DNA of 64,000 nucleotides from Gemmatimonadota bacterium (GTDB lineage: Bacteria > Gemmatimonadota > Gemmatimonadetes > Palauibacterales > KS3-K002), in the NCBI GenBank assembly GCA_020344215.1, contig CP070815.1, forward strand, positions 2,490,358-2,554,357, given 5' to 3'. The position numbers and the translations under genes were made by a program. Shown here piece after piece: positions 13,312 to 57,841 of the stretch (position 1 is its first letter; every line of letters begins with the position of its first letter). The notes below the pieces were generated by a model. That model ran no database searches. It saw only the letters and a program-made list of their open reading frames with translations, and was not told where the DNA came from.

Positions 13312-14757
13312 CTAGGGTTCGAGGGAGACGGCGCGGAAGCGGACGTCGGGGTCGGGCCGGCCGCGGGAGAAGCGCGGTGCCTTCAAGATCCGGCGATTGT
13401 CGCCCCAGGTCAGGTAGAAGCCCTCTTCGTCGACCGTGCCGTCGTTGTAGTCCCCCATGTAGCAGCTCTTGACCAGCGGGTCGAAGTTCGGATTGAGCGG
13501 CGGCACGTCGAACGACTCGGCGGTGACCCGCTGGTTGACCCAGCTGCGGCCGCCGTCGGTGGAGACGGCGCGGTAGACATCGATCTTCAGATTGGCGGAG
13601 TCGTGCCGGCGGTCGTAGAAGAAGACGCTCACCTGGCCACCCGGCCCCACATCGAGAACCGGCATGAAGTTGTCGTTGCGGGTCTCGTCACCGTTCGCCT
13701 TCACGGCGCGCCCCTTGACGATGTTGACGGGCTCGCTCCAGGAGGCGCCGCCGTCCGTCGAGCGCACCACGAAGACGTCGGAGGCATCACCCCGCCCCTG
13801 GCGACCGGGATCGGCGGCGAAGGCGATGTAGATGTCGCCGCTCCTCCGATCGACATCGATGCTGGGGAACTCGTTCACGCGAATGAAGCCCTTGAGCGCC
13901 GGTCGGTAGCAGGCAGACGTGGCGGACCGGTCGGCGATCCGCGCGAACGTGGCGGCGGCGTACTCCGTCCCCCACGTCTCACCGCCGTCGGTCGAACGCC
14001 GCACCCTGATGCGACCGCCCGTCATACCCGAGCGGTCTTCCCAGGCCACGTGCAGCTCGCCGCGTCTCCCCACCACCGGCATCGCACCCTGAACCTCGCG
14101 GCCGGAGGACAGCCGTTCAGCCCTCGAGTACGTCCTGCCGCCGTCGCTGGACCGGGAGAAGAGGATGCGCGCGGGACCGCGAGGCGGGAACTCGGTCCAG
14201 ACGAGGTAGACGTTCCCGTCGTAACGGCCACCGGTGGCATCGACCGCTATGAGTTCCTTGTCCTGGAAGCCGTTGGGCTCGAGGCCCGGGATCAAGACGG
14301 GCTCGCTGAAGGTCACCGCGCCCTTCGTCTCCGTCGACTTGGCGACGCCAACGTACGAGCGCGCCCGGGCGTCCAGCGCCAGAGTGGCGAAGTAGAAGTT
14401 GCCGTCCCGGTCAACGGCGAGCGCCGCGTCTCCCAGGTTGCGGCCACCCTTCGCCGGCGCCAGCACCCCGGCATCGCTGAACGTCGCCCCACCATCCAGG
14501 GAATAAGCGTAGCCCGTCATGCTGTTGCGACGCGTGAACTCACCGGAATCGTTGAAGCCGACGACCACCACGTCGCCGTGCCGGGCCACCGTGGTCTCGC
14601 TCTGGGTCGTGTTGTTGCCGCGATCAACCGACGGGTCGTTGACCAGTATGTCGTCGGCTGCCCCGAACCGCCCGCCATCCTCACCGCAGGTCACGAGCAA
14701 TCCGATCAAGACGAAAGCGCCGACCCTCCTGATCGCCGTCCTCACCCTTCTCGTCAT
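13312..14757 (-). CDS. BNR/Asp-box repeat lipoprotein (sialidase-like glycosyl-hydrolase fold)
   Basis: Four S/T-x-D-G-G-x-T/S-W/Y Asp-boxes are present: SDGGRTYS, STDGGETWG, STDGGASWS and STDGGRSWV. The lipobox is LLVTCG. The ORF-track N-extension (SYSYSSSSS) comes from reading through a repeat element. Confidence 0.65.
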   Translation of the reverse strand: MTRRVRTAIRRVGAFVLIGLLVTCGEDGGRFGAADDILVNDPSVDRGNNTTQSETTVARHGDVVVVGFNDSGEFTRRNSMTGYAYSLDGGATFSDAGVLAPAKGGRNLGDAALAVDRDGNFYFATLALDARARSYVGVAKSTETKGAVTFSEPVLIPGLEPNGFQDKELIAVDATGGRYDGNVYLVWTEFPPRGPARILFSRSSDGGRTYSRAERLSSGREVQGAMPVVGRRGELHVAWEDRSGMTGGRIRVRRSTDGGETWGTEYAAATFARIADRSATSACYRPALKGFIRVNEFPSIDVDRRSGDIYIAFAADPGRQGRGDASDVFVVRSTDGGASWSEPVNIVKGRAVKANGDETRNDNFMPVLDVGPGGQVSVFFYDRRHDSANLKIDVYRAVSTDGGRSWVNQRVTAESFDVPPLNPNFDPLVKSCYMGDYNDGTVDEEGFYLTWGDNRRILKAPRFSRGRPDPDVRFRAVSLEP

Positions 14758-14815
14758 CACGCTCGACGAGGATGAGTACGAGTACGAGGCTGACGATGAC
14801 GGAGACGGGGATCGA
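14740..14815. repeat. Copy R1, a degenerate member of the hexamer-repeat hairpin family (contains GAGTACGAGTACGAGG)
   Basis: It shares an ACGAGT hexamer tract with the copies at 24.85, 28.4, 49.4 and 57.6 kb. The arms ctcgtcatc and gatgacgga are partly complementary. Confidence 0.4.
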
Positions 14816-15554: not shown

Positions 15555-16502
15555 ATGCTCTGGCTTCTGCTGATTCCCGGCGTTCTTCTGCTAACGGCTC
15601 TCACGCTATTCACGCTGTGGATGGTCGGCGAGCGCGGGCACCTGATGCTCCCATCGACCCGGGCGCAAATGATGAGGTCCGGTGGCTCGTCGGGATCCGG
15701 CGGCAACGGGCATCGGGCTGGGTTGGCCAACGCTCTGCACGGCTACGTCTATGGGCGCTGGCCCTACCAGTACATCAAGATCGCGATCCGCTGGCTGCTC
15801 CCGTACATGTCACCGGAGCAGAAGCGCTGGTGGGCCGATCGCTATCACGGCAAGGTCCTGCCAACGGAGCTGGCGCGCCGGGTCATCAACCTGGACCACG
15901 ACATCAAGCGGACCGACCTCGAGCGGATCATCCCCTACCCGATGGCGCGGGACATCGTGCTCAAGGGCCCGCCCGGCGTGGTCCTGCTCGATTGCCCCTG
16001 TCGCGATGCGCGAGAGGACCCCTGCCAACCGACCGACGTCTGCATGATCGTCGGTAACGGCAGCTTCGTGCTCGAGCACCACCCAAACCGATCGCGGCGT
16101 ATCACGCAGCAGGAGGCGCTCGATCTGCTGCAGGCGGAGCACGAGCGCGGGCACATCCACACGGCCTACTTCAAGGACGCGATGGACAATCGCTTTTACG
16201 CGATCTGCAACTGCTGCTCCTGCTGCTGCGGCGGGCTCGAGGCGATGAGGAGGGGCGTCCCGATGGTCGCATCGTCGGGTTACGTGGCCCAGGTGGACGA
16301 GGAAGCGTGCATAGCCTGCGGAGACTGCGAGGTCGCGTGTCCCTTCGGCGCGCTAACGCTGAACGATACCGCCGAGGTGAGCTGGGAGAAGTGCATGGGC
16401 TGCGGTGTTTGCGAGGGTCAGTGTGAGACGGAGGCGATGCACCTGGTGCTCGACGAGCGCAAGGGCGTGCCGATGGATGTGCAGGCGATTGGAGTACGGT
16501 AG
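15555..16502 (+). CDS. Membrane-anchored 4Fe-4S ferredoxin-domain protein with an extra poly-Cys cluster
   Basis: GAGGAG lies 8 nt upstream of the ATG. An N-terminal TM helix is present. Two ferredoxin motifs CIACGDCEVACP and CMGCGVCEGQC are present, plus an unusual CNCCSCCCGG cluster. The ORF track places the start at 15513. Confidence 0.6.
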   Translation: MLWLLLIPGVLLLTALTLFTLWMVGERGHLMLPSTRAQMMRSGGSSGSGGNGHRAGLANALHGYVYGRWPYQYIKIAIRWLLPYMSPEQKRWWADRYHGKVLPTELARRVINLDHDIKRTDLERIIPYPMARDIVLKGPPGVVLLDCPCRDAREDPCQPTDVCMIVGNGSFVLEHHPNRSRRITQQEALDLLQAEHERGHIHTAYFKDAMDNRFYAICNCCSCCCGGLEAMRRGVPMVASSGYVAQVDEEACIACGDCEVACPFGALTLNDTAEVSWEKCMGCGVCEGQCETEAMHLVLDERKGVPMDVQAIGVR

Positions 16503-16618
16503 TCAGTGGTCGGTAATCAGTAGTCAGTAGTCAGTAGTCAGTAGTCAGTGACTGCCGACGACCGACGACCGATGACCGACCACCGACGACCGACTACCGA
16601 TTACTGATTACCGATTGC
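16500..16618. repeat. Inverted pair of heptamer tandem arrays: (AGTAGTC)n followed by (GACGACC/GATTACC)n, forming an imperfect hairpin of about 120 nt
   Basis: Period-7 tandem units are visible. The left block gtcggtaatcagta is nearly the reverse complement of the right block taccgattactgat. Confidence 0.6.
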
Positions 16619-22731: not shown

Positions 22732-24843
22732 ATGAGGACCGACACCACTGCAGCCGCTACCTTGGTGCTGATACTCGCCGCGGCACCCGCCGCTGCTCAG
22801 CGACCCGTCGGCGTCCCGGCTGACAGCGTCTTTCTCTACAAGCTCGAGGGGATCTCGGTCACCGTCTCACGCTCAGCCCTGGAGGTGGAGCGGCTTCCTT
22901 ACGCCGTCGGCGTGCTGGGCGCGGAGGACGTCCAGGGGCTCGAGGCCACGATCTCGCTGGACGAGTCGCTGGCCCAGATTCCTGGCGTGTTCGTCGACAA
23001 CCGGTACAACTTCGCCCTCGGGGCCCGCATCTCGATCCGCGGATTCGGCGCCCGCACCCAGTTCGGTGTGCGCGGCGTCCGCATCATCCAGGACGGGATC
23101 CCGCTGACGCTACCCGACGGCCAAGCGCAGACAGGCAACCTCGACCTGGGCGCCGCCGGTCGCATCGAGGTGATCCGCGGTCCCGCCTCGGCACTGTACG
23201 GCAACGCCAGCGGCGGCGTGATCAGCGTGCAGACCGAGTCGGCACCGGCGGCGGCGCTGCGGCCCGAGTTCCGGGCACTGGCCGGCGGCTACGGCAACGG
23301 CCGCTCATACCAGAAGTACGACTTGAAGCTCGGAGGGCAGCAGGGGCGCTTCGACTACCTCGGTCACCTCGCCTACTTCGACAGCGACGGCTTCCGCACG
23401 CACAGCGAGGCGACGTACACGCTGCTCAACGCGCGCCTCCGCTACGAGCTGGACAGGAACGCCGACCTCACCCTGGTGGTCAACTACGCGGACGCGCCGC
23501 AGGCCGAGAATCCGAGCACGCTGACCGACTCTGTCGCCAGGGTGAAGCCGGACACGGTCCGCGACATAGTGCTACCGCCGGAGGAATGCCCGCCGGACCC
23601 CGGGTTCGGTGGCTGCCAGAACCTGGGCGAGGAGTTCCGACAGGGGCAGGCCGGGGTCACCTACCGCCGCAGGTTCGGGGGCACTCACGAGATCTCGCTC
23701 ATGGGCTACGGCCTGTTCCGTGAGCTGGAGAACCGGATCCCCTTCCGGCTCATCGAGCTCGACCGGCTCGGGGGCGGAGCGCGGGCGGAGTACCGCCTCA
23801 CCCCGGCGGAGGGTCGCCTGGCCCGCTTGACCGCCGGGCTCGACCTCGACAGCCAGTGGGACGACCGAGTCGAGCTCGTACGCGACGACGAGACGGTCGG
23901 GCCGGCGGCGCTCGACCAGGATGAGAGGGTCACGGCGCTTGGGCTCTTCGCGCACGGCGGCCTGGTTCTCGCCTCCGGGCTCGAGCTGACGCTCAGCCTC
24001 CGCTACGATCGTGTCCGCTTCCAGGTGGATGACCGCCTGGTCACGGGCGACGATCCCGACGACTCCGGAACGCGCAACATGGACCAATGGAGCCCGATGG
24101 TGGGGCTGAGCTACAGCTACGCAACCTGGCTCAACCTCTACGGCAACGTTGGGCGATCGTTCCAGACGCCCACGACCACCGAGCTCACCGACACGCTCGG
24201 TGGTTTCAACGCGGAGTTGCAGCCCGAGCGCGCCACGAACTACGAAATCGGTGTGAAAGGCACTGCCGGCGGACGGGCGAGCTACAGCCTCGCCCTATTC
24301 CACACCGATGTGGAGGACCAGCTCATCGGTTCCGCGGCGGCCGGGACCGAGCGTGTCCTTTTCGAGAACGCCGGCTCGAGCGTGCACGAAGGGATCGAGG
24401 TGGGGATCTCAGCGCTCGTCGCCCCCAGCTTGACTGCGACGGCCGCTTATACGTACTCCGACTTCAAGTTCGAGGAGTTCGTCACCGAGGCCGGTGATTT
24501 CAGCCGGAACCGGGTCCCGGGTGTCCCGCCGCACCGGCTGCACGCGCGTCTCGGCTACGCAGGCGGCCGGGGACTCTCCGGTTCGCTGCAACTGACCGCG
24601 GCCGACGACCACTTCGTCGACAACGCGAGCGAGAGCCGCAACGACGGCTACACCGTCGTCGACCTGCGTCTCGGATTCACCGCGCACACCCCCGGCTTCG
24701 AGATCGCACCCTTCCTGGGGCTCAACAACCTCTTCGACGAGCGCTACAACTCATCGGTCGTCGTCAACGCGATCGCCGGTCGCTACTACGAACCGGCTCC
24801 GGGGCGGAACCTCTACGTTGGCGTCCGCCTGAGCACCCGGTAG
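22732..24843 (+). CDS. TonB-dependent outer-membrane receptor
   Basis: A plug-domain motif (DESLAQIPGVFVDNRYNFALGARISIRGFGAR) is present. Length is 703 aa with beta-barrel periodicity. Confidence 0.85.
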   Translation: MRTDTTAAATLVLILAAAPAAAQRPVGVPADSVFLYKLEGISVTVSRSALEVERLPYAVGVLGAEDVQGLEATISLDESLAQIPGVFVDNRYNFALGARISIRGFGARTQFGVRGVRIIQDGIPLTLPDGQAQTGNLDLGAAGRIEVIRGPASALYGNASGGVISVQTESAPAAALRPEFRALAGGYGNGRSYQKYDLKLGGQQGRFDYLGHLAYFDSDGFRTHSEATYTLLNARLRYELDRNADLTLVVNYADAPQAENPSTLTDSVARVKPDTVRDIVLPPEECPPDPGFGGCQNLGEEFRQGQAGVTYRRRFGGTHEISLMGYGLFRELENRIPFRLIELDRLGGGARAEYRLTPAEGRLARLTAGLDLDSQWDDRVELVRDDETVGPAALDQDERVTALGLFAHGGLVLASGLELTLSLRYDRVRFQVDDRLVTGDDPDDSGTRNMDQWSPMVGLSYSYATWLNLYGNVGRSFQTPTTTELTDTLGGFNAELQPERATNYEIGVKGTAGGRASYSLALFHTDVEDQLIGSAAAGTERVLFENAGSSVHEGIEVGISALVAPSLTATAAYTYSDFKFEEFVTEAGDFSRNRVPGVPPHRLHARLGYAGGRGLSGSLQLTAADDHFVDNASESRNDGYTVVDLRLGFTAHTPGFEIAPFLGLNNLFDERYNSSVVVNAIAGRYYEPAPGRNLYVGVRLSTR

Positions 24844-24980
24844 CTCCCGCTCCTTCCTCCCGCTCGTACTCCCGCTCGTAATCGTGATCGTGATCCTACT
24901 CGTACTCGCGCTCCCGTATTTCCGAGTACGAGTACGAGGACGAGTACGAGCAGGAGGAGGAGGGGGAGGAGGAGGGGGGG
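24844..24980. repeat. Copy R2 of the hexamer-repeat hairpin family: CTCCTCCCGCTCGTACTC...CGTAATCGTGATCGTGATC...loop...GAGTACGAGTACGAGGACGAGTACGAGCAGGAGGAGG
   Basis: This is an imperfect inverted repeat of about 130 nt. Its arms are period-6 units of CGTNAT and ACGAGN. It begins at the TonB-dependent receptor stop codon. Confidence 0.65.
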
Positions 24981-25054
24981 CAGGCTACTGGCTAGCGGCG
25001 GCGCACACCCTATATTCGGCGTCATATCAGCGATCGAACCCGGGAGGCCTGTCG

Positions 25055-28404: not shown

Positions 28405-28466
28405 CCCCTCCTCCTGCTCCTGCTCGTATACGATCACGATTACGAGCAAGAGCAGGAGGAGAGAGG
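28405..28466. repeat. Copy R3 of the hexamer-repeat hairpin family; it fills the convergent moeA/etfA intergenic gap exactly
   Basis: cccctcctcctgctcctgctcgtatacgatc pairs with gatcacgattacgagcaagagcaggaggagagagg in a hairpin centred on GATC. Confidence 0.65.
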
Positions 28467-43525: not shown

Positions 43526-44182
43526 TCAGCCTCCGAAGAAGAACTTGTAGCCAGCCACGATCTGGATGTTCTGGTTCGTCACATCGAAGTCCTCTTCACC
43601 CGGGGTATCGTTAACGTTGGTCAATCCGAGATTGTAGAGGACATCGAGCATGACCGCGCCGCTGCCGACGGACACATCAATGCCGCCACCGAAAAAGAGG
43701 CCGAAATCCACGCTCTTGGTCTCGACGCCGAAGGTTTCACAGTCGATTTCTATCGAAGCCCCACCTTCCTCGCCCGAGATGTTACAGCCGACCTCGAAGG
43801 CGATAGCGGGGCCCGCATAGACGCGGGGTGTGATGTTACCCTGGGTGGGTATGGTCAACGTAGCCGGGAACATGAACTCAATGTAGTCCACATTCGCGTC
43901 TATTTCATCGCCTGCTTCAGAGAAACTCGCGCCTTTCTGCACGTACTGACCGTCCGCCTGAACCATGAAGTACTCGTGCAGCTGGATGCCGAAGAACCCT
44001 CCGAAGCTGAAGCCAAACTTGGAGTCCGGCGAGACTCCGATCAGTTGGTCGGTGTCAGCGCCCAGGTTGGCGAAGTCGACACCGGCTTTGACACCAGCGG
44101 TCAAGTCCATCTGCGCTAAGCTAGGCGTCGCGACGAGCGCGACGAACAGCGCGGCCAGCACAACCGAACATACCTTCTTCAT
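43526..44182 (-). CDS. Outer-membrane beta-barrel protein (porin-family), one of a tandem pair
   Basis: The signal peptide reads ALVATPSLAQ. The C-terminus ends IQIVAGYKFFFGG. Confidence 0.6.
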   Translation of the reverse strand: MKKVCSVVLAALFVALVATPSLAQMDLTAGVKAGVDFANLGADTDQLIGVSPDSKFGFSFGGFFGIQLHEYFMVQADGQYVQKGASFSEAGDEIDANVDYIEFMFPATLTIPTQGNITPRVYAGPAIAFEVGCNISGEEGGASIEIDCETFGVETKSVDFGLFFGGGIDVSVGSGAVMLDVLYNLGLTNVNDTPGEEDFDVTNQNIQIVAGYKFFFGG

Positions 44183-44422: not shown

Positions 44423-45088
44423 TCAGCCTCCGAAGAAGAACCTGTAACCAGCCACGATCTGGATGTTCCTGTTCTTGATCTCCTCCGTGGTGCCCGGGAT
44501 ATCGTTGATGTCGGTCAGTCCCAGATTGTAGAGCACGTCGAAGGTGATCGCGCCGCTGCCGACGGCGATATCAAGACCGCCACCGAACAGTACGCCGAAA
44601 TCGATGCTCTTGGTCTCCAAGTCCGGGAGGAAGCCATCCGTCGCTTCCGACAACTCGTCGCAGTCGATACTTGCCGATACACCATCTTCTTCGGCGGAGA
44701 AATCGCAGCTCACCTCAAGGGCCAGCGCCGGTCCAACGTAGAGGCGTGGCGTGATGGAGCCGTTCCCAGTCGGGATCGTCAGAATGGCCGGCACCATGAA
44801 CTCGATGTAGTCGAGATTGAAGTCGGCATCCGCTCCACCCACATCTTCCGACAATCCCTTCTGTACGTACTGCCCTTCGAACTGAAGCCTGAAGTACTCG
44901 TGGAGCTGGATGCCGAACGACCCGCCGATGCTGAAACCCATCTTCGAGTCGGTGTCCTCGACATCGCCACCCTGGTTCGCGAAGCCGATGCCGAGCTTGG
45001 GACCAGCGCTCAAGTTCTGGGCCTGAACGGGGCTGGCGGCGAGTGCGACCAACAGCGCGATTGGCAAGACCGAGTATACCCTCTTCAT
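44423..45088 (-). CDS. Outer-membrane beta-barrel protein, tandem paralogue of the gene at 43526..44182
   Basis: The signal peptide reads LAASPVQAQ. The C-terminus ends IQIVAGYRFFFGG. Protein identity with the paralogue is about 60%, and the flanking DNA is also conserved. Confidence 0.6.
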   Translation of the reverse strand: MKRVYSVLPIALLVALAASPVQAQNLSAGPKLGIGFANQGGDVEDTDSKMGFSIGGSFGIQLHEYFRLQFEGQYVQKGLSEDVGGADADFNLDYIEFMVPAILTIPTGNGSITPRLYVGPALALEVSCDFSAEEDGVSASIDCDELSEATDGFLPDLETKSIDFGVLFGGGLDIAVGSGAITFDVLYNLGLTDINDIPGTTEEIKNRNIQIVAGYRFFFGG

Positions 45089-45494
45089 AAGTCAGCCCTC
45101 CTGCGTCGGTTCGTTGCAGTGCCCATTCCAGACTTCACAACGTCCATCCAAGCGAAGAGCAAGCTCACAAGCCTGTGTACAGACACACAGCCAATCGTCA
45201 TACCGGCCACGATGGCTGCTGCCACCGCACTGAGGAACAGCTATCCCGGGCCTTCTCCCGGTCGGACGGATGGGTGAGGACCGACAAGTTGTTGTTGCGA
45301 GCATCGTCCGTCAAGTACTCGCCCGAGACCCTGAAATCGAGGCTGGCCATGAACCCGACTCCCAAACGTGTGGGAGGGCCTTCCCAGCCTCCCCGAGGAT
45401 GCAGATATTGGGCCGACCGACAGGCTAGTCGCGCGAGAGACGGCAGGTTCAGCCTGTCACGGGACGCAAGAAGGGGGATGACTGGCAACGGCCG

Positions 45495-48023
45495 CTATCG
45501 GATATCCGCCCTTCGCAGCCGGTTGGCATTCGTGACCACGTTGATCGAGGAGAACGCCATGGCGGCCTCGGCGATCGCCGGGTGCAGCAAGCCGAGAATC
45601 GCTACGGGGATGGCGACCACATTGTAGAAGTAGGCCCAGAACAGGTTCTGGCGGATTTTGCGGAACGTGGCGTGCGAGAGCCGGATCGCCCGCACCACCG
45701 CCGACAGATCACCCTGGACCAGCGTTACGTCCGCCGCCTCGATCGCGATGTCGGTGCCTGTGCCGATGGCGATGCCAACGTCGGCTTGCTTGAGCGCCGG
45801 CGCATCGTTGATGCCGTCGCCGACCATGGCGACCTTGCAACCTTCAGACTGCAGCCGCTTCACCTCGTTCGCCTTCTGGTCGGGGAGCACCTCGGAAATC
45901 ACGCGGTCGATACGCACCTCGCGTCCTATGGCGCGCGCTGTTCCCTCGTTGTCGCCGGTGAGCATGACGGTCTCGAGGCCGAAGCGCTTGAGCTCGGCGA
46001 TGGCGGCCTGCGAGTCGTCTTTCAGCCGATCGGCCACGGCGATCACTCCCGCCGGCCGGCCGGCGACGGCGACGAGCATGGCGCTCTTCGCCTCGTCCTC
46101 CAGGCGTGCAAGTTCCGAAGCGAGCTGGTCGACAGCGACGTATTCCTCCTCCATCAGGCGCGCGTTGCCAACCAACACGACCTGCCCGTCGATCCGAGCT
46201 CGCACGCCACGCCCCACCAGCGCCTCGAAGTGCGTCGCTTCGATGATGGTGAGCTGACGTGACACCGCCTCGGCGACGATCGCCGACCCGATCGGGTGCT
46301 CAGAGCCCGACTCGGCGCTCGCCGCATAGCGAAGCGTGTCGTCTTCCTTCCAACCGGCGGCCGGGACGACATCGGTGACCCCGGGCTCGCCGCGCGTGAT
46401 GGTTCCCGTCTTGTCGAGGACGATCGTGTCGATCTCCTTCAGGACCTGGATGGCGGCACCGCTGCGAACCAGTACTCCGTTCTCGGCACCCATGCCGGTG
46501 CCGACCATCAGCGCCGTGGGCGTGGCGAGCCCCAGTGCGCACGGGCAGGCGATGACCAGCACCGCGACCGCCGCGAATATCGCCAGCGAGACGCTCCCCA
46601 AGCTTGGATCGACCCAGGGCAGAAATCCGGAGGCCCAGTCGGCGATCCCGCGGAAGAAGCCGGGGAAGAGGAGCCAGGCGACGAAGGTCGCAGCCGCCAC
46701 CGCCAGGACTGTGGGAACGAACACAGCCGTGACCCGGTCGGCGAACTCCTGGATCGGTACTTTCGTCCCCTGCGCCTCTTCCACCATGCGGATCACGTGC
46801 GCGAGGAAGGTGTCCTCGCCGACGCCGGTGGCGCGGACCCGGAGCATCCCCTCCTTGTTGATGGTCGCGCCGATGACCTTGTCGCCTTCACACTTCTCTA
46901 CCGGCATCGACTCGCCGGTGGCCAGCGACTCGTCCACTGAGCTGTGGCCCCCTATCACCTCGCCGTCGGTGGGGATCTTTTCGCCGGGTCGAACCACGAG
47001 GAGATCGCCGACATCGACTTCCTCGATGGGGACCTCGACCTCCGCACCACCTCGCTCGACACGCGCCGTCTTCGCCTCGAGCGAGAGGAGCTTCTGTATG
47101 GCCGCCGAGGTACGGCCCCGCGCCTTTGTCTCTACCCAGCGGCCGGTCAGATGGATGGCCATGATCATGGCACCGACGCCGGCGTAGTTGAGGAGCTTGG
47201 GCGCAAAGCCCATATCGTAGGCGACGGCCACGAAGCCGGTGGCGAATGCAACCGTAGAGCCGATGGCGATGAGGGTATCCATCGTCGGCGTGCGGTTGAG
47301 TAGGCTGCGGTAGCCGCCTCGTACCGTCTCCCAGCCCCAGATGAAGAGGACGGGCGCGGCGAGGACGATCATCCCCACATCGAAGGCCAGGGCGGAAGGC
47401 CACATCACCCCGAAGAACATGTGGGGGATCATCCAGGCGATGATCGGCGCCGTGAACGCCCAGGCCCACACCATCCGCCCGCGCGCCCGATCGACCTTCC
47501 GCTGGTCCTCCTCGAGCCGCTCCCGCTCCCGGGCCAGGCGTCGCTCGGCGCCGGGCCGCTCGACGGCCGCCAGCGCGTAGCCCGCTCCCTCGACGGCACG
47601 TCGCAGATCGTCGACCCGAGCGTGATCGGGCGCGTGCTCCACCGTCGCCTTGTGGGTGGCGATGTTGACGCTGGCCGAGCTCACGCCTTCCACTTGCGCG
47701 AGCGCCTTCTCGACCGCCTGAGCGCAGGAGGCGCAGTGCATCCCCTCGATATCGAGCACGACCTTCTGCGGTCGCGCCTTCACTTTGTAGCCCGCCGCCT
47801 CGACGGCCTGGCGGAAATCGTCCAGGCCGACGCGCGCGGCGTCGTATTCGACCGTCGCCTTCTCCGTCGCCAGGTTGACGTGAGCATCGTGCACGCCTTC
47901 AACGCCTTGCAGCGCACGCTCCACGTGCCCCACGCACGACGCGCAGTGCATCCCCTCGATCTCAAGGATCTCAGTGGATGTTCTCGTCTTGGTTGCCTGT
48001 CCTCTGTCTTCGTACCGGCTCAC
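45495..48023 (-). CDS. copA: Copper-translocating P1B-type ATPase
   Basis: Two N-terminal metal-binding domains with GMHCASC are present. The remaining motifs are the CPC motif (ACPCALG), DKTGT and GDGINDAP. Confidence 0.9.
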
Positions 48024-48272
48024 GATCGCTCTCTTTCATTTCTCCGACCATCGAAGGGAAGCCGAGGGTGTCGTCGAGTGTGCCTTGGAGCGCGGCGGCG
48101 GCGAAGCCGCCGTCCCCACAATCGAGCCGCGCGACGCGGAGCGAGAGTACCTCTCGGCCTCCAGCTCGCTCACGGCGCCTGGATTACCTCGCAACAAAGA
48201 TCGCGGGCGCGAGGGCCCCGAAAGGGACCCCCGCGCCCGGGTCTGAGGGGGTGCCGGGCTGCCCCGCCGTCG

Positions 48273-48902
48273 TTACTGCTCTGGAGGCGGTGGCGGTCTC
48301 GGCTGGTCCTGCCGCTCCCGCCGCTGGGTACCGCGTCCCCTCATCCCGTGACCTCGCATCTGCCGGCAACGCTCCAGCCGCTGACGGCCGAAGATCGCAG
48401 CGCCCTCGCGCCACGTCTCGTACTTCTCACGCTGGGCGTCCGTCAGGACCTCCAGCGATTGCCGCTCAACGTTTAGTAGTCCTCGGGCCACCCCGGTCTG
48501 AAGCTCCGCGCCCTCTTCGATCAAACGCTCCAACGCGTCATAATCGCGCTCCCCGCGGGCCTGCTTCACTGCCTCGCGGTGCTCGCGCAGCCGTTCCATC
48601 TGCGCCTGCATCAGCGCGTGATGGTCCTCGCCGAGCTTCTCGAGCCGTTCGACCTGCTGCTCGCTGAGTTCCAGATCCTCCCTTAAGCCGAGGAGCATGC
48701 GAGGCCCGATGTGACCCGCTCGAAGCATGCCGCCTGCCCTAAACCCTCTCTGGCCCATCATCCCCACGTGCGCACCGCGCCAGCCCCTCAGCCCACGCGC
48801 CTGAGCCGTGTCTTCCTCCTGCGCCTGGGCCGCCCCAGAGACCGCCAGCAGGATCGGCAGCGCCAGAATCGTCGCCAGTGCCGGAATTCGCCTATTCATC
48901 AT
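48273..48902 (-). CDS. Periplasmic LTxxQ-motif protein (CpxP/Spy/ZraP-like metal-stress protein)
   Basis: The signal peptide reads LAVSGAAQAQ. The LTDAQREKY motif is present. The gene sits between csoR and copA. Confidence 0.5.
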   Translation of the reverse strand: MMNRRIPALATILALPILLAVSGAAQAQEEDTAQARGLRGWRGAHVGMMGQRGFRAGGMLRAGHIGPRMLLGLREDLELSEQQVERLEKLGEDHHALMQAQMERLREHREAVKQARGERDYDALERLIEEGAELQTGVARGLLNVERQSLEVLTDAQREKYETWREGAAIFGRQRLERCRQMRGHGMRGRGTQRRERQDQPRPPPPPEQ

Positions 48903-49011
48903 CCACCCTCCGTTCGGTGGTCGGTGTCTCTCCTACTCGTTAACAATGACACCTATCCCCACCGAAACGTTACGGCCGGCGACCCGTCAGCCCGCTGCCC
49001 CGGCGCCCCGG

Positions 49012-49311
49012 CTACTTCACGTACCGATACAGCAGGTCGACGATCTCCTCCCTCACCTGCTCGGCCGGCTCGCCGCCCTGCTGGATGGCGTGCGTCACAC
49101 AGCGCTCCAGGTGGTTCTTCAGCAACAGCTTCTCCGCCCCGTGCAGCGCCGAGTGGACCGCGGCGAACTGCTGGAGCACGTCGGGGCAGTAGCGCTCCCC
49201 CTCGACCATGCGCTGGATCCCCTCGACCTGGCCCCGTGCCCGGGCGAGGCGCTTGAGGATATCGCGCTTTGCGCTGTCGGCAATGCCCATGGCGTGCGCG
49301 GGCTTTGGCAT
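49012..49311 (-). CDS. csoR: CsoR/RcnR-family metal-sensing transcriptional repressor (DUF156)
   Basis: The segment RLARARGQVEGIQRMVEGERYCPDVLQQFAAVHSALHG is present with the conserved Cys and His ligands. AGAGGAGG lies 6 nt upstream of the ATG at 49311. Confidence 0.8.
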   Translation of the reverse strand: MPKPAHAMGIADSAKRDILKRLARARGQVEGIQRMVEGERYCPDVLQQFAAVHSALHGAEKLLLKNHLERCVTHAIQQGGEPAEQVREEIVDLLYRYVK

Positions 49312-49323
49312 CGGGCCTCCTCT

Positions 49324-49368
49324 GCTATACTGGTGTATAGTATAGCGCGGCGCCGTCACCCCTGTCAA
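49324..49368 (-). promoter_or_regulatory. csoR promoter TTGACA-N18-TATACT with an inverted repeat GCTATACT-N7-AGTATAGC over the -10 element and transcription start region (candidate CsoR operator)
   Basis: The reverse complement reads TTGACAggggtgacggcgccgcgcTATACTatacaccagtatagcagaggaggcccgATG. The palindrome spans 49324-49346. Confidence 0.55.
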
Positions 49369-49380
49369 TCCCTCCCTCTG

Positions 49381-49480
49381 CTCATCGCCATCACCGTCCT
49401 CGTCGTCATCGGCACCCCTGTCGTGCATCGAGCACGATTACGATTACGAGCACGATTACGAGGATGAACGCGATTAGAGG
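49381..49480. repeat. Copy R4, a degenerate member of the hexamer-repeat hairpin family (CGAGCACGATTACGATTACGAGCACGATTACGAGG), lying between the cytochrome c 3' end and the csoR promoter
   Basis: Period-6 CGATTA/CGAGCA units are present. The left arm cctcgtcgtcatcg is only partly complementary. Confidence 0.5.
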
Positions 49481-49617
49481 GTGCTATTGGGCGGAGGGTT
49501 GGCGGGTGGAATCACGGGAATTCGGGGGAGCCGGAAGGCCGGGGGGCACTTCTCCAGTTCCCGACCTCGCTGAATCCTCGAACCCCCGAATCGACCTTCC
49601 AGGATTGCCGCGCTATC

Positions 49618-50400
49618 TCAGCGGACCGCCCGCTCTCTGAGATAGCCGGTGATCGCATCCAGCTCCTGGGTGCTCAGCGGCTCAACGTCGAGCAGGCCCA
49701 TGTAGGCCTGCATCTGCGCGACGACGCGATCCCACCCCGCTGCTGTGTGAGCGCTCGGCGCCGGCAGCTCGTGACACACCGAGCACCGCTGGATGAAGAG
49801 ATCCCTGCCCGCCCCGGGTGTCAGATCATCCGGCCCGGGAGTGGGAAGCGCGTACTGCTGCAGATAGGCGATAATCGTGTCCATGTCCGCCTGCGAGGGG
49901 ACCTCGACACTCTCATAGCCCGCCATCACGACATCGCCGATGAGGCCGGTCGTCAGCGGGCCGCCCAGGCGGTCCGTGAGCTGCTGCATGCGCAGCAGGT
50001 TGCGCTTCACCAGGATGGGCCACTCGGCGGCGCTGTGCATCTGAGGCGTGGGCAACCAGTGGCACTGAATGCAGTAGACCTGGAGCAGACCGGCGCCGCG
50101 CGAGCCCGGCTCGGGCAGGTCCTCGGGCTTGAAGTCGTTGGGCGGCAAGCCGACACCGATCGAGCTGACCATCCGCCAGCGCTGCCCGCGCTCGAGGCTG
50201 GCAGTGAGGGTACCGCCAAGCTCGGCCAACACGCTGTCGACTGCCACCAGGTCGACCGGCTCCTCGGACGCACCCGGCTGGCAGCCGGTCGCCGCCGCGG
50301 CGAGCATGACGAGAGCGACGACACCACCTGCGAGCAACGAGCGGAGAGCAGATCGATGCGACGCAGATCCTTCGCTGTAAGCCTGGGGCCTCGTGCACAT
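49618..50400 (-). CDS. Dihaem c-type cytochrome lipoprotein
   Basis: Two CxxCH motifs (CIQCH, CSVCH) are present. The lipobox is AAATGCQ. Confidence 0.7.
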   Translation of the reverse strand: MCTRPQAYSEGSASHRSALRSLLAGGVVALVMLAAAATGCQPGASEEPVDLVAVDSVLAELGGTLTASLERGQRWRMVSSIGVGLPPNDFKPEDLPEPGSRGAGLLQVYCIQCHWLPTPQMHSAAEWPILVKRNLLRMQQLTDRLGGPLTTGLIGDVVMAGYESVEVPSQADMDTIIAYLQQYALPTPGPDDLTPGAGRDLFIQRCSVCHELPAPSAHTAAGWDRVVAQMQAYMGLLDVEPLSTQELDAITGYLRERAVR

Positions 50401-50438
50401 TGCCTCCCCCTTCCGTAGAAGCCGGCGGCCGCTCTAGC

Positions 50439-50993
50439 TCAGGCCGCCTTCGAGCGTCGCAGTGTGGCCAGCCCGGCGAACGTGTAGTCGATAATCGCGA
50501 TGGCTGATGCCGCGCCGACTGCCACCATGAAGACGGTGAAGCGCTCCGGCACCAAGAGCAGCACGAAAAGCGTTACAACCTGCAGAGCGGTCACCAACTT
50601 GCCGGCGGGCCGGGACTGGGCCGGGACGTTGACTCCCATCGCCTTCCCGACCAGCCACCCTGCGCCGACATACAGATCGCGTGATACCAGAATCAGGTAC
50701 TCCCGCGACCCTAGATAGGGCCCCGGGAGGAAAGCCGCCAGGGTGATAACCACAAACAGCTTGTCGAACAGCGGGTCCATGATGGCGCCCGCTTTGCTCT
50801 CCACGCCCAAGCGCCGGGCGAGCCACCCATCCAGCGCATCGGTGAGGGCACCGAGGAACAGGAGGATGCCGCGCCACAGCAGGTTATCGATCACGAAGAA
50901 GGCGGCCGCGATCGGCAGGCGAAGCGCCGAAATGAAGTTCGGCACGTTTGCCAGCGCGGATCGGCGGTTCGCGGTCGCTTCGGCGCTACTCAT
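50439..50993 (-). CDS. pgsA: CDP-alcohol phosphatidyltransferase (phosphatidylglycerophosphate synthase-like)
   Basis: The family motif DALDGWLARR...G...DPLFDK is present. Length is 184 aa and the protein is membrane-embedded. Confidence 0.75.
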   Translation of the reverse strand: MSSAEATANRRSALANVPNFISALRLPIAAAFFVIDNLLWRGILLFLGALTDALDGWLARRLGVESKAGAIMDPLFDKLFVVITLAAFLPGPYLGSREYLILVSRDLYVGAGWLVGKAMGVNVPAQSRPAGKLVTALQVVTLFVLLLVPERFTVFMVAVGAASAIAIIDYTFAGLATLRRSKAA

Positions 50994-57578: not shown

Positions 57579-57616
57579 CCAGAAACCGGCAACCGGCCTG
57601 AGCTCAGCCCTTCCAT

Positions 57617-57731
57617 CTCCTGCTCGTGCTCGTAAGCGTAAGCGTGATCGTATTCGTAATCGTAATCGACCACGCGCCGGGCAGCGATTGTGACTGCGAT
57701 TACGATCGCGATTACGAGCAGGAGCAGGAGG
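57617..57731. repeat. Copy R5, the best-preserved member of the hexamer-repeat hairpin family: ctcctgctcgtgctcgtaagcgtaagcgtgatcgtattcgtaatcgtaatcg - loop - cgattacgatcgcgattacgagcaggagcaggagg
   Basis: A 35-50-nt inverted repeat made of CGTAAT-type hexamers around a 28-nt loop, lying in the divergent region upstream of gyrA. Confidence 0.7.
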
Positions 57732-57841
57732 AAGAGGTGAGCACGATCGACGCTTGAGGGCGAAGGACTCGGCACTTAAGTTGAGGATGTCCTTTTCGGT
57801 GTATCTTCGCGCCGACCTTCTGGTGGAAGAGGAGTGGGGTT

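What the first reader, a model, noticed from the sequence alone, without database searches (positions are those of the whole stretch)
49324..49480. csoR promoter with a palindromic operator over the -10 element and an R4 repeat copy directly upstream
Upstream of the CsoR-family repressor gene (start 49311) lies a near-consensus sigma70 promoter, TTGACA-N18-TATACT. A 23-bp inverted repeat GCTATACT-N7-AGTATAGC (49324-49346) overlaps its -10 element and start site. This is the classic arrangement for autorepression by a CsoR/RcnR-type metal sensor. The operon is csoR, then an LTxxQ periplasmic protein gene, then copA. The degenerate hexamer-hairpin copy R4 abuts the -35 element and may serve as the terminator of the upstream cytochrome c gene.
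Basis: partly seen in the sequence, partly recalled or inferred. Interest (0 to 1): 0.5.

Follow-up and report, generated by a model that had tools for sequence, protein, structure and literature searches.

The report
Conserved CsoR copper-repressor operator over promoter
This is the binding site of a copper-sensing repressor (CsoR), sitting on top of its own promoter in a Gemmatimonadota genome; it is real and strongly conserved, but it is an ordinary example of a well-known regulatory arrangement.

Summary
TTGACA-N18-TATACT (49368..49339, minus strand) is the only sigma70-like site in 48200-50500. GCTATACT-N7-AGTATAGC (49324-49346) is exact and unique in the 64 kb.

The gene at 49012-49311(-) is a PF02583 repressor. 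It carries the Cu(I)-CsoR residues Y41, C42, H67, C71 and E89 and an RLAR motif. An LTXXQ gene and a Cu-type P1B ATPase gene follow it.

In 69 of 73 Gemmatimonadota csoR loci, one 24-bp box lies just upstream of csoR: nATAC(T)(A)TAC-N4-GTA(T)(A)G(T/C)ATn. Its flanks are unconserved. It is the only such site in each ~10-kb locus.

The conserved unit is 49321-49344. It holds two overlapping TAC-N9-GTA dyads 5 bp apart. This is the TACNNTAC-N4-GTANNGTA consensus determined biochemically for Thermus TTHA1953, and it contains the TAC-X9-GTA dyad essential for Streptomyces CsoR.

Two qualifications:
- A conserved terminator-like hairpin (48204-48239) separates LTXXQ from copA.
- The R4 hairpin (49370-49480) is real but has no T-tract and is present in only some orthologous loci.

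Verdict: a new member of a known kind, of low-to-moderate interest. All functional steps are inferred.

The parts
49321..49344 (-). CsoR box (operator). On the minus strand it reads TATACTATAC-ACCA-GTATAGCAGA, which fits TACNNTAC-N4-GTANNGcA. It holds two overlapping TAC-N9-GTA dyads.
   Evidence: A PWM built from orthologues only scores this site 35.3 bits. Nothing else in the 64 kb reaches 8 bits, and the highest score in 20 shuffles is 8.0. Box positions are nearly invariant across 68 distinct sites while the flanks carry under 0.2 bit. The symmetry centre is at box position 12.5.
49324..49346 (.).
   Evidence: The repeat is exact (I8) and unique in the window. It corresponds to the upstream TAC-N9-GTA dyad plus non-conserved outer G-C pairs.
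49339..49344 (-). -10 hexamer TATACT, which forms the first six bases of the box. An overlapping alternative, TACTAT, lies at 49337-49342.
   Evidence: Promoter scan. In relatives the spacer from the -35 hexamer to this hexamer is 15-18 nt.
49363..49368 (-). -35 hexamer TTGACA.
   Evidence: Promoter scan. TTGAC/TTGC is found at the equivalent position in about 35 orthologous loci.
49316..49321 (-). Shine-Dalgarno AGGAGG, 4 nt before the ATG. It abuts and overlaps the last base of the box.
   Evidence: Read directly from the sequence. The close relatives L001-L005 keep AGGAGG at the same place.
49012..49311 (-). csoR, 99 aa. A Cu(I)-type CsoR/RcnR-family repressor.
   Evidence: PF02583 at 1e-28. 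The best solved relatives are 4m1p and 2hh7, both CsoR. Y41, C42, H67, C71 and E89 align with Mtb Y35, C36, H61, C65 and E81 and are invariant in 30 homologues, as are R21 and R24 of RLAR.
48273..48902 (-). LTXXQ (CpxP/Spy-like) protein gene. A signal-peptide-like N-terminus was read by eye from the translation; no predictor was run.
   Evidence: PF07813 at 1.3e-5, 26.3 bits against a cutoff of 24.3. Its position between csoR and copA is conserved in the window's clade.
48194..48239 (-). Terminator-like hairpin between LTXXQ and copA. It has a 16-bp G+C-rich stem followed by CGATCTTTGT.
   Evidence: Terminator scan. The hairpin is conserved in 12 orthologous loci. 6 of 16 pairs show compensatory changes, and relatives have better T-tracts.
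45495..48023 (-). copA, a Cu(I)-type P1B ATPase with two N-terminal HMA domains.
   Evidence: Pfam E1-E2_ATPase, HMA x2 and Hydrolase. TIGR01511 at 556 bits against a cutoff of 397. The CPC, YN and MxxSS motifs are visible in the translation. copA lies downstream of csoR in most of the 80 loci.
49370..49480 (-). R4, a degenerate hexamer-repeat hairpin lying directly upstream of the -35 hexamer.
   Evidence: RNA fold of -48.1 kcal/mol, z = -3.3. Hexamer arrays are detected. Analogous hairpins occur at the same place in L003, L005, L016 and L025, but not in L001, L004, L006, L007 or L009.
49618..50400 (-). Upstream dihaem cytochrome c gene, on the same strand.
   Evidence: Weak Pfam hits to Cytochrome_CBB3 and DHC. 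The cytochrome c-csoR synteny is seen only in the window's clade.

Best explanation
The 24-bp box at 49321-49344 is the operator of the CsoR encoded immediately downstream. It covers the -10 hexamer, the predicted transcription start and the first base of the Shine-Dalgarno sequence.

Apo-CsoR probably binds it as two tetramers, as other family members do. It would anchor its RLXR (R21-L-A-R24) helices on the TAC/GTA triplets and block RNA polymerase. This would repress csoR itself, the LTXXQ gene and, by read-through of a leaky hairpin, copA.

When Cu(I) binds C42, H67 and C71, with Y41 and E89 as the second shell, the repressor leaves the DNA and the unit is transcribed.

Shown here:
- the sequence features;
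- their uniqueness in the window;
- their conservation and exclusive association with csoR across the phylum;
- the match to biochemically defined CsoR-family operators;
- the presence of the Cu(I) ligand set.

Inferred:
- binding itself and its stoichiometry;
- the position of the transcription start;
- the copper response;
- co-transcription of copA.
For: 1. The promoter and palindrome are confirmed and unique.
2. Phylogenetic footprint: in 68 distinct sites the triplets TAC/TAC/GTA/G(T/C)A are invariant or nearly so, at 1.3-2.0 bits per position. Flanking positions carry 0.02-0.5 bit, although the CsoR proteins are only 57-90% identical.
3. A PWM built without the window scores the window site 35.3 bits. 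Nothing else in the 64 kb reaches 8 bits. Each ~10-kb orthologous locus has exactly one site, always just upstream of csoR.
4. The box keeps overlapping core promoter elements although the promoter register changes. In about 35 loci, including the window, TTGACx lies 15-18 nt upstream, so the left half of the box serves as the -10. In about 14 loci (the Palauibacter group) TTGCGx lies 0-2 nt upstream, so TATAGT in the right half serves as the -10 with a 17-nt spacer. A plain -10 element would not behave this way.
5. The box equals TACNNTACNNNNGTANNGTA at 11 of 12 specified positions. This is the REPSA/BLI-defined site of the CsoR-family protein TTHA1953, which probably binds as an octamer (PMC10318464). 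The box also contains the TAC-X9-GTA dyad whose mutation abolishes S. lividans CsoR binding (PMC3902906).
6. The protein matches PF02583 and carries RLAR, Q48, Y41, C42, H67, C71 and E89, which align with the Mtb CsoR residues.
7. csoR-(LTXXQ)-copA synteny is conserved, and copA is a Cu-type ATPase.
Against: - There are no experimental data for this organism.
- The window site departs from the phylum consensus at two positions of the downstream outer half (GCAGA instead of GTATA, or GCATA in its own clade). Its central N4 is ACCA, so it lacks the run of at least 4 G/C that the literature treats as typical of CsoR sites.
- The 18-nt spacer is at the upper limit for sigma70 promoters.
- A conserved hairpin with a T-tract between LTXXQ and copA means that copper control of copA from this promoter is not assured.
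- The same 15-base core pattern also occurs next to unrelated genes in metagenomes, for example a LexA-like gene in L084 and L132. The motif alone is therefore not diagnostic.
Confidence: 0.85

Rival explanations
1. The box is the operator of this regulator, but the physiological effector is not Cu(I). It could be Ni/Co, as for InrS and RcnR, or persulfide or thiol oxidation, as for CstR and TTHA1953.
For: The same box type is bound by TTHA1953, a thiol/sulfur-responsive member of the family. In metagenomes the box lies next to family members with C-x-C and C-H-H fingerprints as well as C-H-C. A His at position 6, in the motif HAMGI, is conserved in most Gemmatimonadota homologues. It could supply a fourth ligand, giving an InrS-like H-C-H-C set. 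InrS is among the solved relatives (5fmn, 8e-13).
Against: Y41, C42, H67, C71 and E89 reproduce the Cu(I)-CsoR set of Mtb CsoR. The two best solved relatives are Cu-CsoRs. The partner gene is a Cu-type P1B-1 ATPase (TIGR01511 above its cutoff, CPC/YN/MxxSS motifs), and this pairing is conserved across the phylum. H6 lies 4 residues N-terminal of the position that aligns with InrS H21.
Confidence: 0.07
2. The conserved A/T-rich box is only a promoter element (a -10 or extended -10 in a G+C-rich genome). It is not a repressor site, and the palindromic appearance is incidental.
For: TATACT is a good -10 hexamer. A/T-rich sequence in a 66% G+C genome is likely to be promoter-related.
Against: Conservation extends 24 bp with dyad symmetry and a fixed N4 spacing, far beyond a -10 hexamer. 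The box keeps its sequence while the -35 shifts by about 15 bp between clades. It occurs only upstream of csoR in every locus and nowhere else in the 64 kb, which holds dozens of ORFs and hence other promoters. It matches a selected-in-vitro protein-binding consensus.
Confidence: 0.04
3. The box is bound by a different transcription factor, not by the adjacent CsoR.
For: Exact matches to ATACTATAC-N4-GTATAG occur upstream of LexA-like, TetR-like and other genes in unrelated metagenome contigs.
Against: Many of those hits are in A/T-rich contigs, where the 15-base pattern is more likely by chance. The other hits were not shown to be functional. Within Gemmatimonadota the box co-occurs strictly with csoR. 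About 27 of 120 metagenome hits are adjacent to a CsoR-family ORF, far more than chance would give for a gene present about once per genome.
Confidence: 0.04

Closest known systems
Thermus thermophilus HB8 TTHA1953 operator (CsoR-family regulator of the sox genes), PMC10318464
   Same: The consensus TACNNTACNNNNGTANNGTA consists of two 8-bp inverted repeats separated by 4 nt, each holding two TAC or GTA triplets, with no continuous G/C tract. The tested probe, TACTATACCTTGGTATGGTA, shares its left half, TACTATAC, with the window site. The window matches 11 of 12 specified positions. The spacing is critical, and the protein probably binds as an octamer.
   Different: TTHA1953 has a C-x-C (CstR-like) sensor, responds to thiol oxidation and controls sulfur oxidation genes. 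The window protein has the C-H-C Cu(I) set and sits with copA. The last triplet in the window is GCA, not GTA.
Streptomyces lividans CsoR type 2 operators (ATATACCCCTNAGGGGTATAT), PMC3902906
   Same: They contain a TAC-X9-GTA dyad flanked by TA repeats, and the site overlaps the promoter of csoR itself, giving autoregulation. The RLXR motif and a conserved Gln are needed for binding. Cu(I) abolishes binding. Two tetramers bind per site.
   Different: The Streptomyces sites have two G/C tracts between the dyad arms, and A-form shape readout has been proposed for them. The window site has TATACACCA between the arms and a second, overlapping dyad shifted by 5 bp.
Bacillus subtilis CsoR-copZA operator (Smaldone and Helmann 2007)
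   Same: From memory, and not verifiable here because the paper is not held: the footprinted site TACCCTACGGGGGTATGGTA has the same TAC-NN-TAC-N4-GTA-NN-GTA layout and overlaps the promoter. Several Gemmatimonadota loci carry nearly this sequence, for example L044 TATACCCTACAGGGGTATGGTATC.
   Different: In B. subtilis csoR is a separate gene from copZA, and the centre of the site is a G5 tract.
Bradyrhizobium liaoningense csoR-cueA CsoR box, PMC5057107
   Same: The box TATACCCCTACCGGGTATA overlaps the -10 of csoR and of the Cu ATPase gene. Derepression in a csoR mutant and by copper was shown.
   Different: The genes are arranged divergently around a bidirectional promoter, the csoR mRNA is leaderless, and the site has a single dyad with G/C tracts.
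E. coli RcnR type 1 site (TACT-G6-N-AGTA), as described in PMC3902906
   Different: RcnR sites need the G6 tract, occur in tandem, bind one tetramer each, and belong to an H-C-H-H Ni/Co sensor.

Membership tests
CsoR/RcnR (PF02583, DUF156) repressors, Cu(I)-sensing CsoR subgroup | Sequence membership in PF02583 | tested here: met
   1e-28, 100 bits against a cutoff of 22.8. The best PDB relatives are 4m1p and 2hh7, both CsoR.
CsoR/RcnR (PF02583, DUF156) repressors, Cu(I)-sensing CsoR subgroup | x-C-H-C metal-ligand fingerprint (Mtb C36/H61/C65) plus second-shell Tyr35 and Glu81 | tested here: met
   C42, H67, C71, Y41 and E89 align with these residues in the phmmer alignment to 2hh7. They are invariant in 30 homologues.
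CsoR/RcnR (PF02583, DUF156) repressors, Cu(I)-sensing CsoR subgroup | RLXR DNA-binding motif in helix 1 and a conserved Gln (S. lividans R54, R57, Q81) | tested here: met
   R21-L-A-R24 is present, and R21, L22, R24 and Q48 are invariant. The motif is defined in PMC3902906. The equivalence of Q48 to Q81 was judged from the alignment pattern, not from a structure.
CsoR/RcnR (PF02583, DUF156) repressors, Cu(I)-sensing CsoR subgroup | Cu(I) binding releases the protein from DNA | not testable with these tools
   This needs EMSA, ITC or in vivo induction.
CsoR-family operator (TAC/GTA dyad type) | 5'-TAC-X9-GTA-3' inverted repeat | tested here: met
   The window has TAC(49342-49340)-N9-GTA(49330-49328). 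A second, imperfect copy, TAC(49337-49335)-N9-GCA(49325-49323), lies 5 bp downstream. The triplets are invariant or nearly so in 68 sites. The feature is defined in PMC3902906.
CsoR-family operator (TAC/GTA dyad type) | G/C tract(s) of at least 3-4 bp between the A/T-rich arms (type 1 or type 2 sites) | tested here: not met
   The centre of the window site is ACCA. The phylum consensus is only weakly C/G-rich at box positions 11-14. TTHA1953 shows that family members can bind sites lacking the tract.
CsoR-family operator (TAC/GTA dyad type) | Overlap with core promoter elements of the regulated unit | tested here: met
   The box includes the predicted -10 hexamer and start site. The overlap is maintained in two different promoter registers across clades. 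The start site itself is not mapped.
CsoR-family operator (TAC/GTA dyad type) | Conserved upstream of orthologous regulator or target genes | tested here: met
   69 of 73 Gemmatimonadota loci have a site of at least 30 bits, one per locus, just upstream of csoR.
TTHA1953-type 20-bp palindrome | TACNNTACNNNNGTANNGTA with an exact 4-nt central spacer | tested here: met
   The window reads TACTATAC-ACCA-GTATAGCA, which matches 11 of 12 specified bases with a 4-nt spacer.
Sigma70-type promoter | -35 and -10 hexamers with a 16-18 nt spacer | tested here: met
   TTGACA-N18-TATACT matches 11 of 12 positions and is the only site in 4 kb. Its function and start site were not tested.
Single operon csoR-LTXXQ-copA | No terminator between the genes; co-transcription | tested here: inconclusive
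   A conserved 16-bp hairpin with a T-tract lies between LTXXQ and copA. In L009, however, only about 31 nt separate it from the copA start. That leaves no room for a promoter, so read-through is implied there. No second CsoR box was found.
Intrinsic terminator (for R4) | G+C-rich hairpin followed by a T/U-tract, downstream of a gene's 3' end | tested here: not met
   The hairpin is present, but it is followed by ATTGACAGGGG. The terminator scan finds nothing in 48200-50500. R4 starts 137 nt after the cytochrome c stop codon. It is absent from many orthologous loci. A U-tract-independent terminator cannot be excluded.

The most novel reading that the evidence does not exclude
The Gemmatimonadota box may be a 'double-dyad' operator. 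Its two overlapping TAC-N9-GTA dyads are offset by 5 bp, which is half a helical turn. Each of the two CsoR tetramers that sandwich the DNA could then read its own dyad on opposite faces by direct base contacts. This would replace the G-tract/A-form shape readout proposed for canonical CsoR sites. The same A/T-rich box also doubles as the -10 element, in either of two promoter registers. If this is right, the TACNNTAC-N4-GTANNGTA layout would be a general third operator class of the CsoR/RcnR family. It would be shared by Cu, persulfide and Ni/Co-type sensors.
Probability: 0.2. Interest if true: 0.45.

Novelty: new member of a known kind. Interest (0 to 1): 0.25.

Why it matters
The result gives a well-supported CsoR regulatory site for Gemmatimonadota. 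A search of the held papers found none on CsoR in this phylum. It also gives a 24-bp position weight matrix that finds exactly one site per locus, which can be used to annotate copper regulons in these genomes.

The result shows that a bona fide Cu-type CsoR uses the G-tract-poor TACNNTAC-N4-GTANNGTA operator. In the held literature that motif is spelled out only for a sulfur-responsive Thermus paralogue. This bears modestly on how CsoR-family proteins recognise DNA.

It does not change the general picture of copper homeostasis.

Tried and rejected
- **Other sites in the window.** A search for further copies of the palindrome or box in the 64 kb, including upstream of LTXXQ and copA, found none at 8 bits or above. 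No second operator can be claimed.
- **Metagenome scan for the regulon.** I scanned metagenome contigs for ATACTATAC-N4-GTATAG. The 15-base pattern is too short for that collection. Most hits are in A/T-rich or otherwise unrelated contigs. Only about 27 of 120 hits lie next to a CsoR-family ORF. The high-G+C hits without csoR are next to LexA-like, TetR-like or unrelated genes. These say nothing about this organism's regulon.
- **B. subtilis operator.** I tried to verify its sequence in the literature, but the papers are not held and a text search gave only false hits. That comparison is marked as recalled from memory.
- **Long-range inverted repeat.** The 10-nt repeat ATAGCGCGGC/GCCGCGCTAT (49342-49351 and 49607-49616) brackets the whole intergenic region and might have marked an inserted element. 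It is not found in any of 26 related loci, so I treat it as chance.
- **Structured RNA.** Rfam finds nothing in the window and nothing meaningful in 48000-49700. An RNA hairpin role for the palindrome is unlikely. The predicted start lies inside it, and its position relative to the promoter differs between clades.
- **Longer csoR ORF.** The 138-aa ORF starting at 49428 would run across the promoter. I rejected it because homologues are 92-108 aa with a conserved N-terminus, and AGGAGG precedes 49311.

Full report
**1. The observation**

Read on the minus strand, 49368..49309 is TTGACA-GGGGTGACGGCGCCGCGC-TATACT-ATACACCAGTATAGCAGAGGAGGCCCG-ATG. A consensus scan finds this TTGACA-N18-TATACT (11 of 12 positions) as the only promoter-like site in 48200-50500 and in 45300-49400. 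Shuffled sequence gives 0.2-0.4 sites.

The inverted repeat GCTATACT-N7-AGTATAGC is exact at 49324-49346. It is the only match in the 64-kb window even with three mismatches allowed, where 0.05 is expected.

The downstream ORF, 49012-49311(-), matches PF02583 at 1e-28. It is followed by an LTXXQ-family gene and a P1B ATPase gene with two HMA domains. A dihaem cytochrome c gene lies upstream on the same strand.

**2. The organism and the protein**

The CsoR is 100% identical to a protein of a Gemmatimonadota MAG with a 4.74-Mb contig. It has more than 200 homologues at E <= 1e-10, and those that carry a source name are from that phylum.

The best solved relatives are Geobacillus CsoR (4m1p, 4e-16) and M. 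tuberculosis CsoR (2hh7, 4e-15). In the alignment to 2hh7, Y41, C42, H67, C71 and E89 fall on Mtb Y35, C36, H61, C65 and E81. By established knowledge (Liu et al. 2007) these are the Cu(I) ligands and second-shell residues. All five are invariant in 30 homologues, as are R21, L22 and R24 of the RLXR DNA-binding motif and Q48 (motif defined in PMC3902906).

The ATPase passes the NCBIfam copper-ATPase model TIGR01511 (556 bits against a cutoff of 397). Its translation shows the CPC, YN and MxxSS motifs. The regulator is therefore a Cu(I)-type CsoR by every sequence criterion I could test.

**3. Conservation of the site**

I fetched 80 loci encoding relatives from species-representative genomes. 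L001-L073 are Gemmatimonadota, with CsoR identity of 57-90%.

In 69 of these 73 loci a 24-bp box lies just upstream of csoR. Over 68 distinct sites the profile is n-A-T-A-C-(T/c/a)-(A/c)-T-A-C-N4-G-T-A-(T)-(A)-G-(T/c)-A-T-n. Twelve positions are invariant or nearly so (1.5-2.0 bits). Positions outside the box carry 0.02-0.5 bit.

A position weight matrix built from the orthologues alone scores the window site (49321-49344) at 35.3 bits. Nothing else in the window reaches 8 bits, and the highest score in 20 shuffles is 8.0. In every ~10-kb locus there is exactly one site of at least 15 bits, always immediately upstream of csoR.

Three of the remaining loci (L050, L061, L069) carry a canonical G-tract CsoR box instead, for example CATACCCTAGGGGGGTATAC. 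L072 has a weak box of 17.9 bits.

**4. What the conserved unit is**

The symmetry of the profile is best about box position 12.5 (score 0.59).

The box is thus TAC-NN-TAC-N4-GTA-NN-GTA. This amounts to two overlapping TAC-N9-GTA dyads 5 bp apart.

In the window's own clade the last triplet is GCA rather than GTA. The window also has G instead of T two bases later, where the box runs into the Shine-Dalgarno AGGAGG.

**5. Relation to the promoter**

- In about 35 loci, including the window, TTGACx or TTGCxx lies 15-18 nt upstream of the box. TATACT, or the overlapping TACTAT, then serves as the -10. The box covers the -10, the start site and the early leader.
- In about 14 loci, mainly Candidatus Palauibacter, TTGCGx lies 0-2 nt upstream of the box. 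The -10 is then TATAGT in the right half of the box, with a 17-nt spacer.

The box stays constant while the promoter register shifts by about 15 bp. This is the behaviour expected of a repressor site that must overlap the polymerase footprint. It argues against the box being merely a -10 element.

**6. Comparison with known operators**

For S. lividans CsoR the consensus is ATATACCCCTNAGGGGTATAT. A TAC-X9-GTA dyad is common to the S. lividans, S. aureus, L. monocytogenes and B. subtilis sites, and swapping any base of the dyad abolishes binding. Two tetramers bind per site, and Cu(I)-CsoR does not bind (PMC3902906).

For the T. thermophilus CsoR-family protein TTHA1953, in vitro selection gave TACNNTACNNNNGTANNGTA. 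Changing the 4-nt spacer by one base weakened binding (raised Kd) 10-15 fold. The protein probably binds as an octamer, and the authors note the lack of a G/C tract (PMC10318464).

The window site TACTATAC-ACCA-GTATAGCA matches that consensus at 11 of 12 positions. Its left half is identical to that of the tested probe. TTHA1953, however, is a C-x-C thiol/sulfur sensor, whereas the protein here is C-H-C and partnered with copA.

A metagenome scan for the box core returned many chance hits. It also returned about 27 instances beside CsoR-family ORFs with C-H-C, C-x-C and C-H-H fingerprints. This box layout therefore appears to be used broadly in the family.

The Bradyrhizobium csoR-cueA box over the -10 is a further experimentally supported analogue (PMC5057107). 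The B. subtilis copZA operator, as I recall it, has the same layout, but I could not verify the sequence.

**7. Mechanism**

The best-supported mechanism is autorepression by promoter occlusion, relieved by Cu(I). I give it a confidence of 0.85. Every functional step (binding, stoichiometry, start site, metal response) is inferred from family knowledge. The tools only establish the sequence logic.

Rival readings are a different effector, a plain promoter element, or another transcription factor. They are listed with their evidence and together take about 0.15.

**8. Qualification: the operon**

Between LTXXQ and copA there is a 16-bp G+C-rich hairpin followed by CGATCTTTGT (48239..48194, minus strand).

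The hairpin is conserved in 12 orthologous loci. 6 of 16 pairs show compensatory changes, and relatives have better T-tracts.

In L009 only about 31 nt separate the T-tract from the copA start codon, so copA there must be transcribed through the hairpin. In the window about 170 nt intervene, and no promoter-like site or CsoR box was detected there.

The hairpin is therefore most likely a leaky terminator or attenuator, or an RNA-stability element, within the unit. Co-transcription of copA is plausible but not established.

In clades without LTXXQ, copA follows csoR directly.

**9. Qualification: R4**

The region 49370-49480 folds into a long imperfect hairpin built from hexamer arrays (-48.1 kcal/mol, z = -3.3). 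It ends 1 nt from the -35 hexamer.

Better copies of the same hairpin family lie at 24843-24985, 28405-28465 and 57610-57740 (z from -6 to -10). The first two directly follow the 3' ends of long ORFs.

At the csoR locus, hairpins of this kind with different hexamer units are present in L003, L005, L016 and L025. They are absent in L001, L004, L006, L007 and L009. R4 is therefore not part of the operator or promoter.

R4 has no T-tract and starts 137 nt after the cytochrome c stop codon. A terminator role is possible but unsupported.

**10. Verdict**

The feature is real, significant and conserved. It is a new member of a known kind, a CsoR operator over its own promoter.

Three points give it mild additional interest:
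- the G-tract-poor double-dyad layout in a copper-type CsoR;
- the two promoter registers;
- the conserved hairpin before copA.

Interest: 0.25.

Noticed in passing
window 24843-24985, 28405-28465, 57610-57740, 49370-49480 (R4); possibly 14725-14815: A family of intergenic hairpins whose arms are tandem hexamers (CTCGTA/ATCGTA paired with TACGAG/TACGAT), closed by CCTCC...GGAGG bases. They are very stable (z from -6 to -10 for three copies). Two copies sit immediately after the 3' ends of long ORFs. The copy at 57.6 kb lies between divergent ORF starts. Related hairpins with other hexamer units occur in orthologous loci. There is no Rfam match.
   Followed up: partly
window 48194-48239 (minus strand): A conserved terminator-like hairpin with a T-tract lies between the LTXXQ gene and copA. 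It shows compensatory base changes across 12 related loci. In L009 it lies only about 31 nt from the copA start, which suggests an attenuator or leaky terminator inside the copper unit.
   Followed up: partly
window 49294-49296 (codon for H6 of CsoR); alignment A1: Gemmatimonadota CsoRs share an N-terminal motif, x-H-A-M-G-I, with His6 conserved in most homologues. It could be a fourth metal ligand or part of a tail that closes over the Cu site. It does not align exactly with the InrS or RcnR 'W' position.
   Followed up: no
L034, L037, L038, L040, L042, L047, L049, L051-L053, L056, L057 (box about 90-130 nt upstream of csoR): In the Candidatus Palauibacter group the same CsoR box lies between the -35 (TTGCGx, 2 nt upstream of the box) and a -10 formed by its right half (TATAGT). 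It is followed by a long leader of about 70-100 nt before csoR. This promoter register differs from the window's.
   Followed up: partly
window 49342-49351 and 49607-49616: A perfect 10-nt inverted repeat (ATAGCGCGGC/GCCGCGCTAT) brackets the whole cytochrome c-csoR intergenic region. It is not found in any of 26 related loci, so it is probably chance.
   Followed up: yes
window 16499-16616: Three adjacent heptamer tandem arrays: GTAGTCA x7.3, CCGACGA x6.6 and ACCGATT x7. Tandem Repeats Finder reported them. Their context was not examined.
   Followed up: no
window 43526-44182 and 44423-45088 (minus strand): Two paralogous ORFs of about 220 aa lie directly downstream of copA. Both have a signal-peptide-like N-terminus and a C-terminal ...GYKFFFGG or ...GYRFFFGG, which resembles outer-membrane beta-barrel proteins. 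A possible link to the copper locus was not examined.
   Followed up: no
L084 5418-5439 and L132 1541-1562 (metagenome contigs): A perfect ATACTATAC-N4-GTATAGTAT palindrome sits at the start of a LexA-like gene in an unrelated contig of about 57% G+C. Similar palindromes may therefore be used by other regulator families.
   Followed up: no
window 49369-49378 and orthologous loci: A G-rich run (GAGGGAGGGA in the window; GGGG or GGG in most relatives) immediately precedes the -35 TTGAC in the window's clade, whether or not a hexamer hairpin is present.
   Followed up: no
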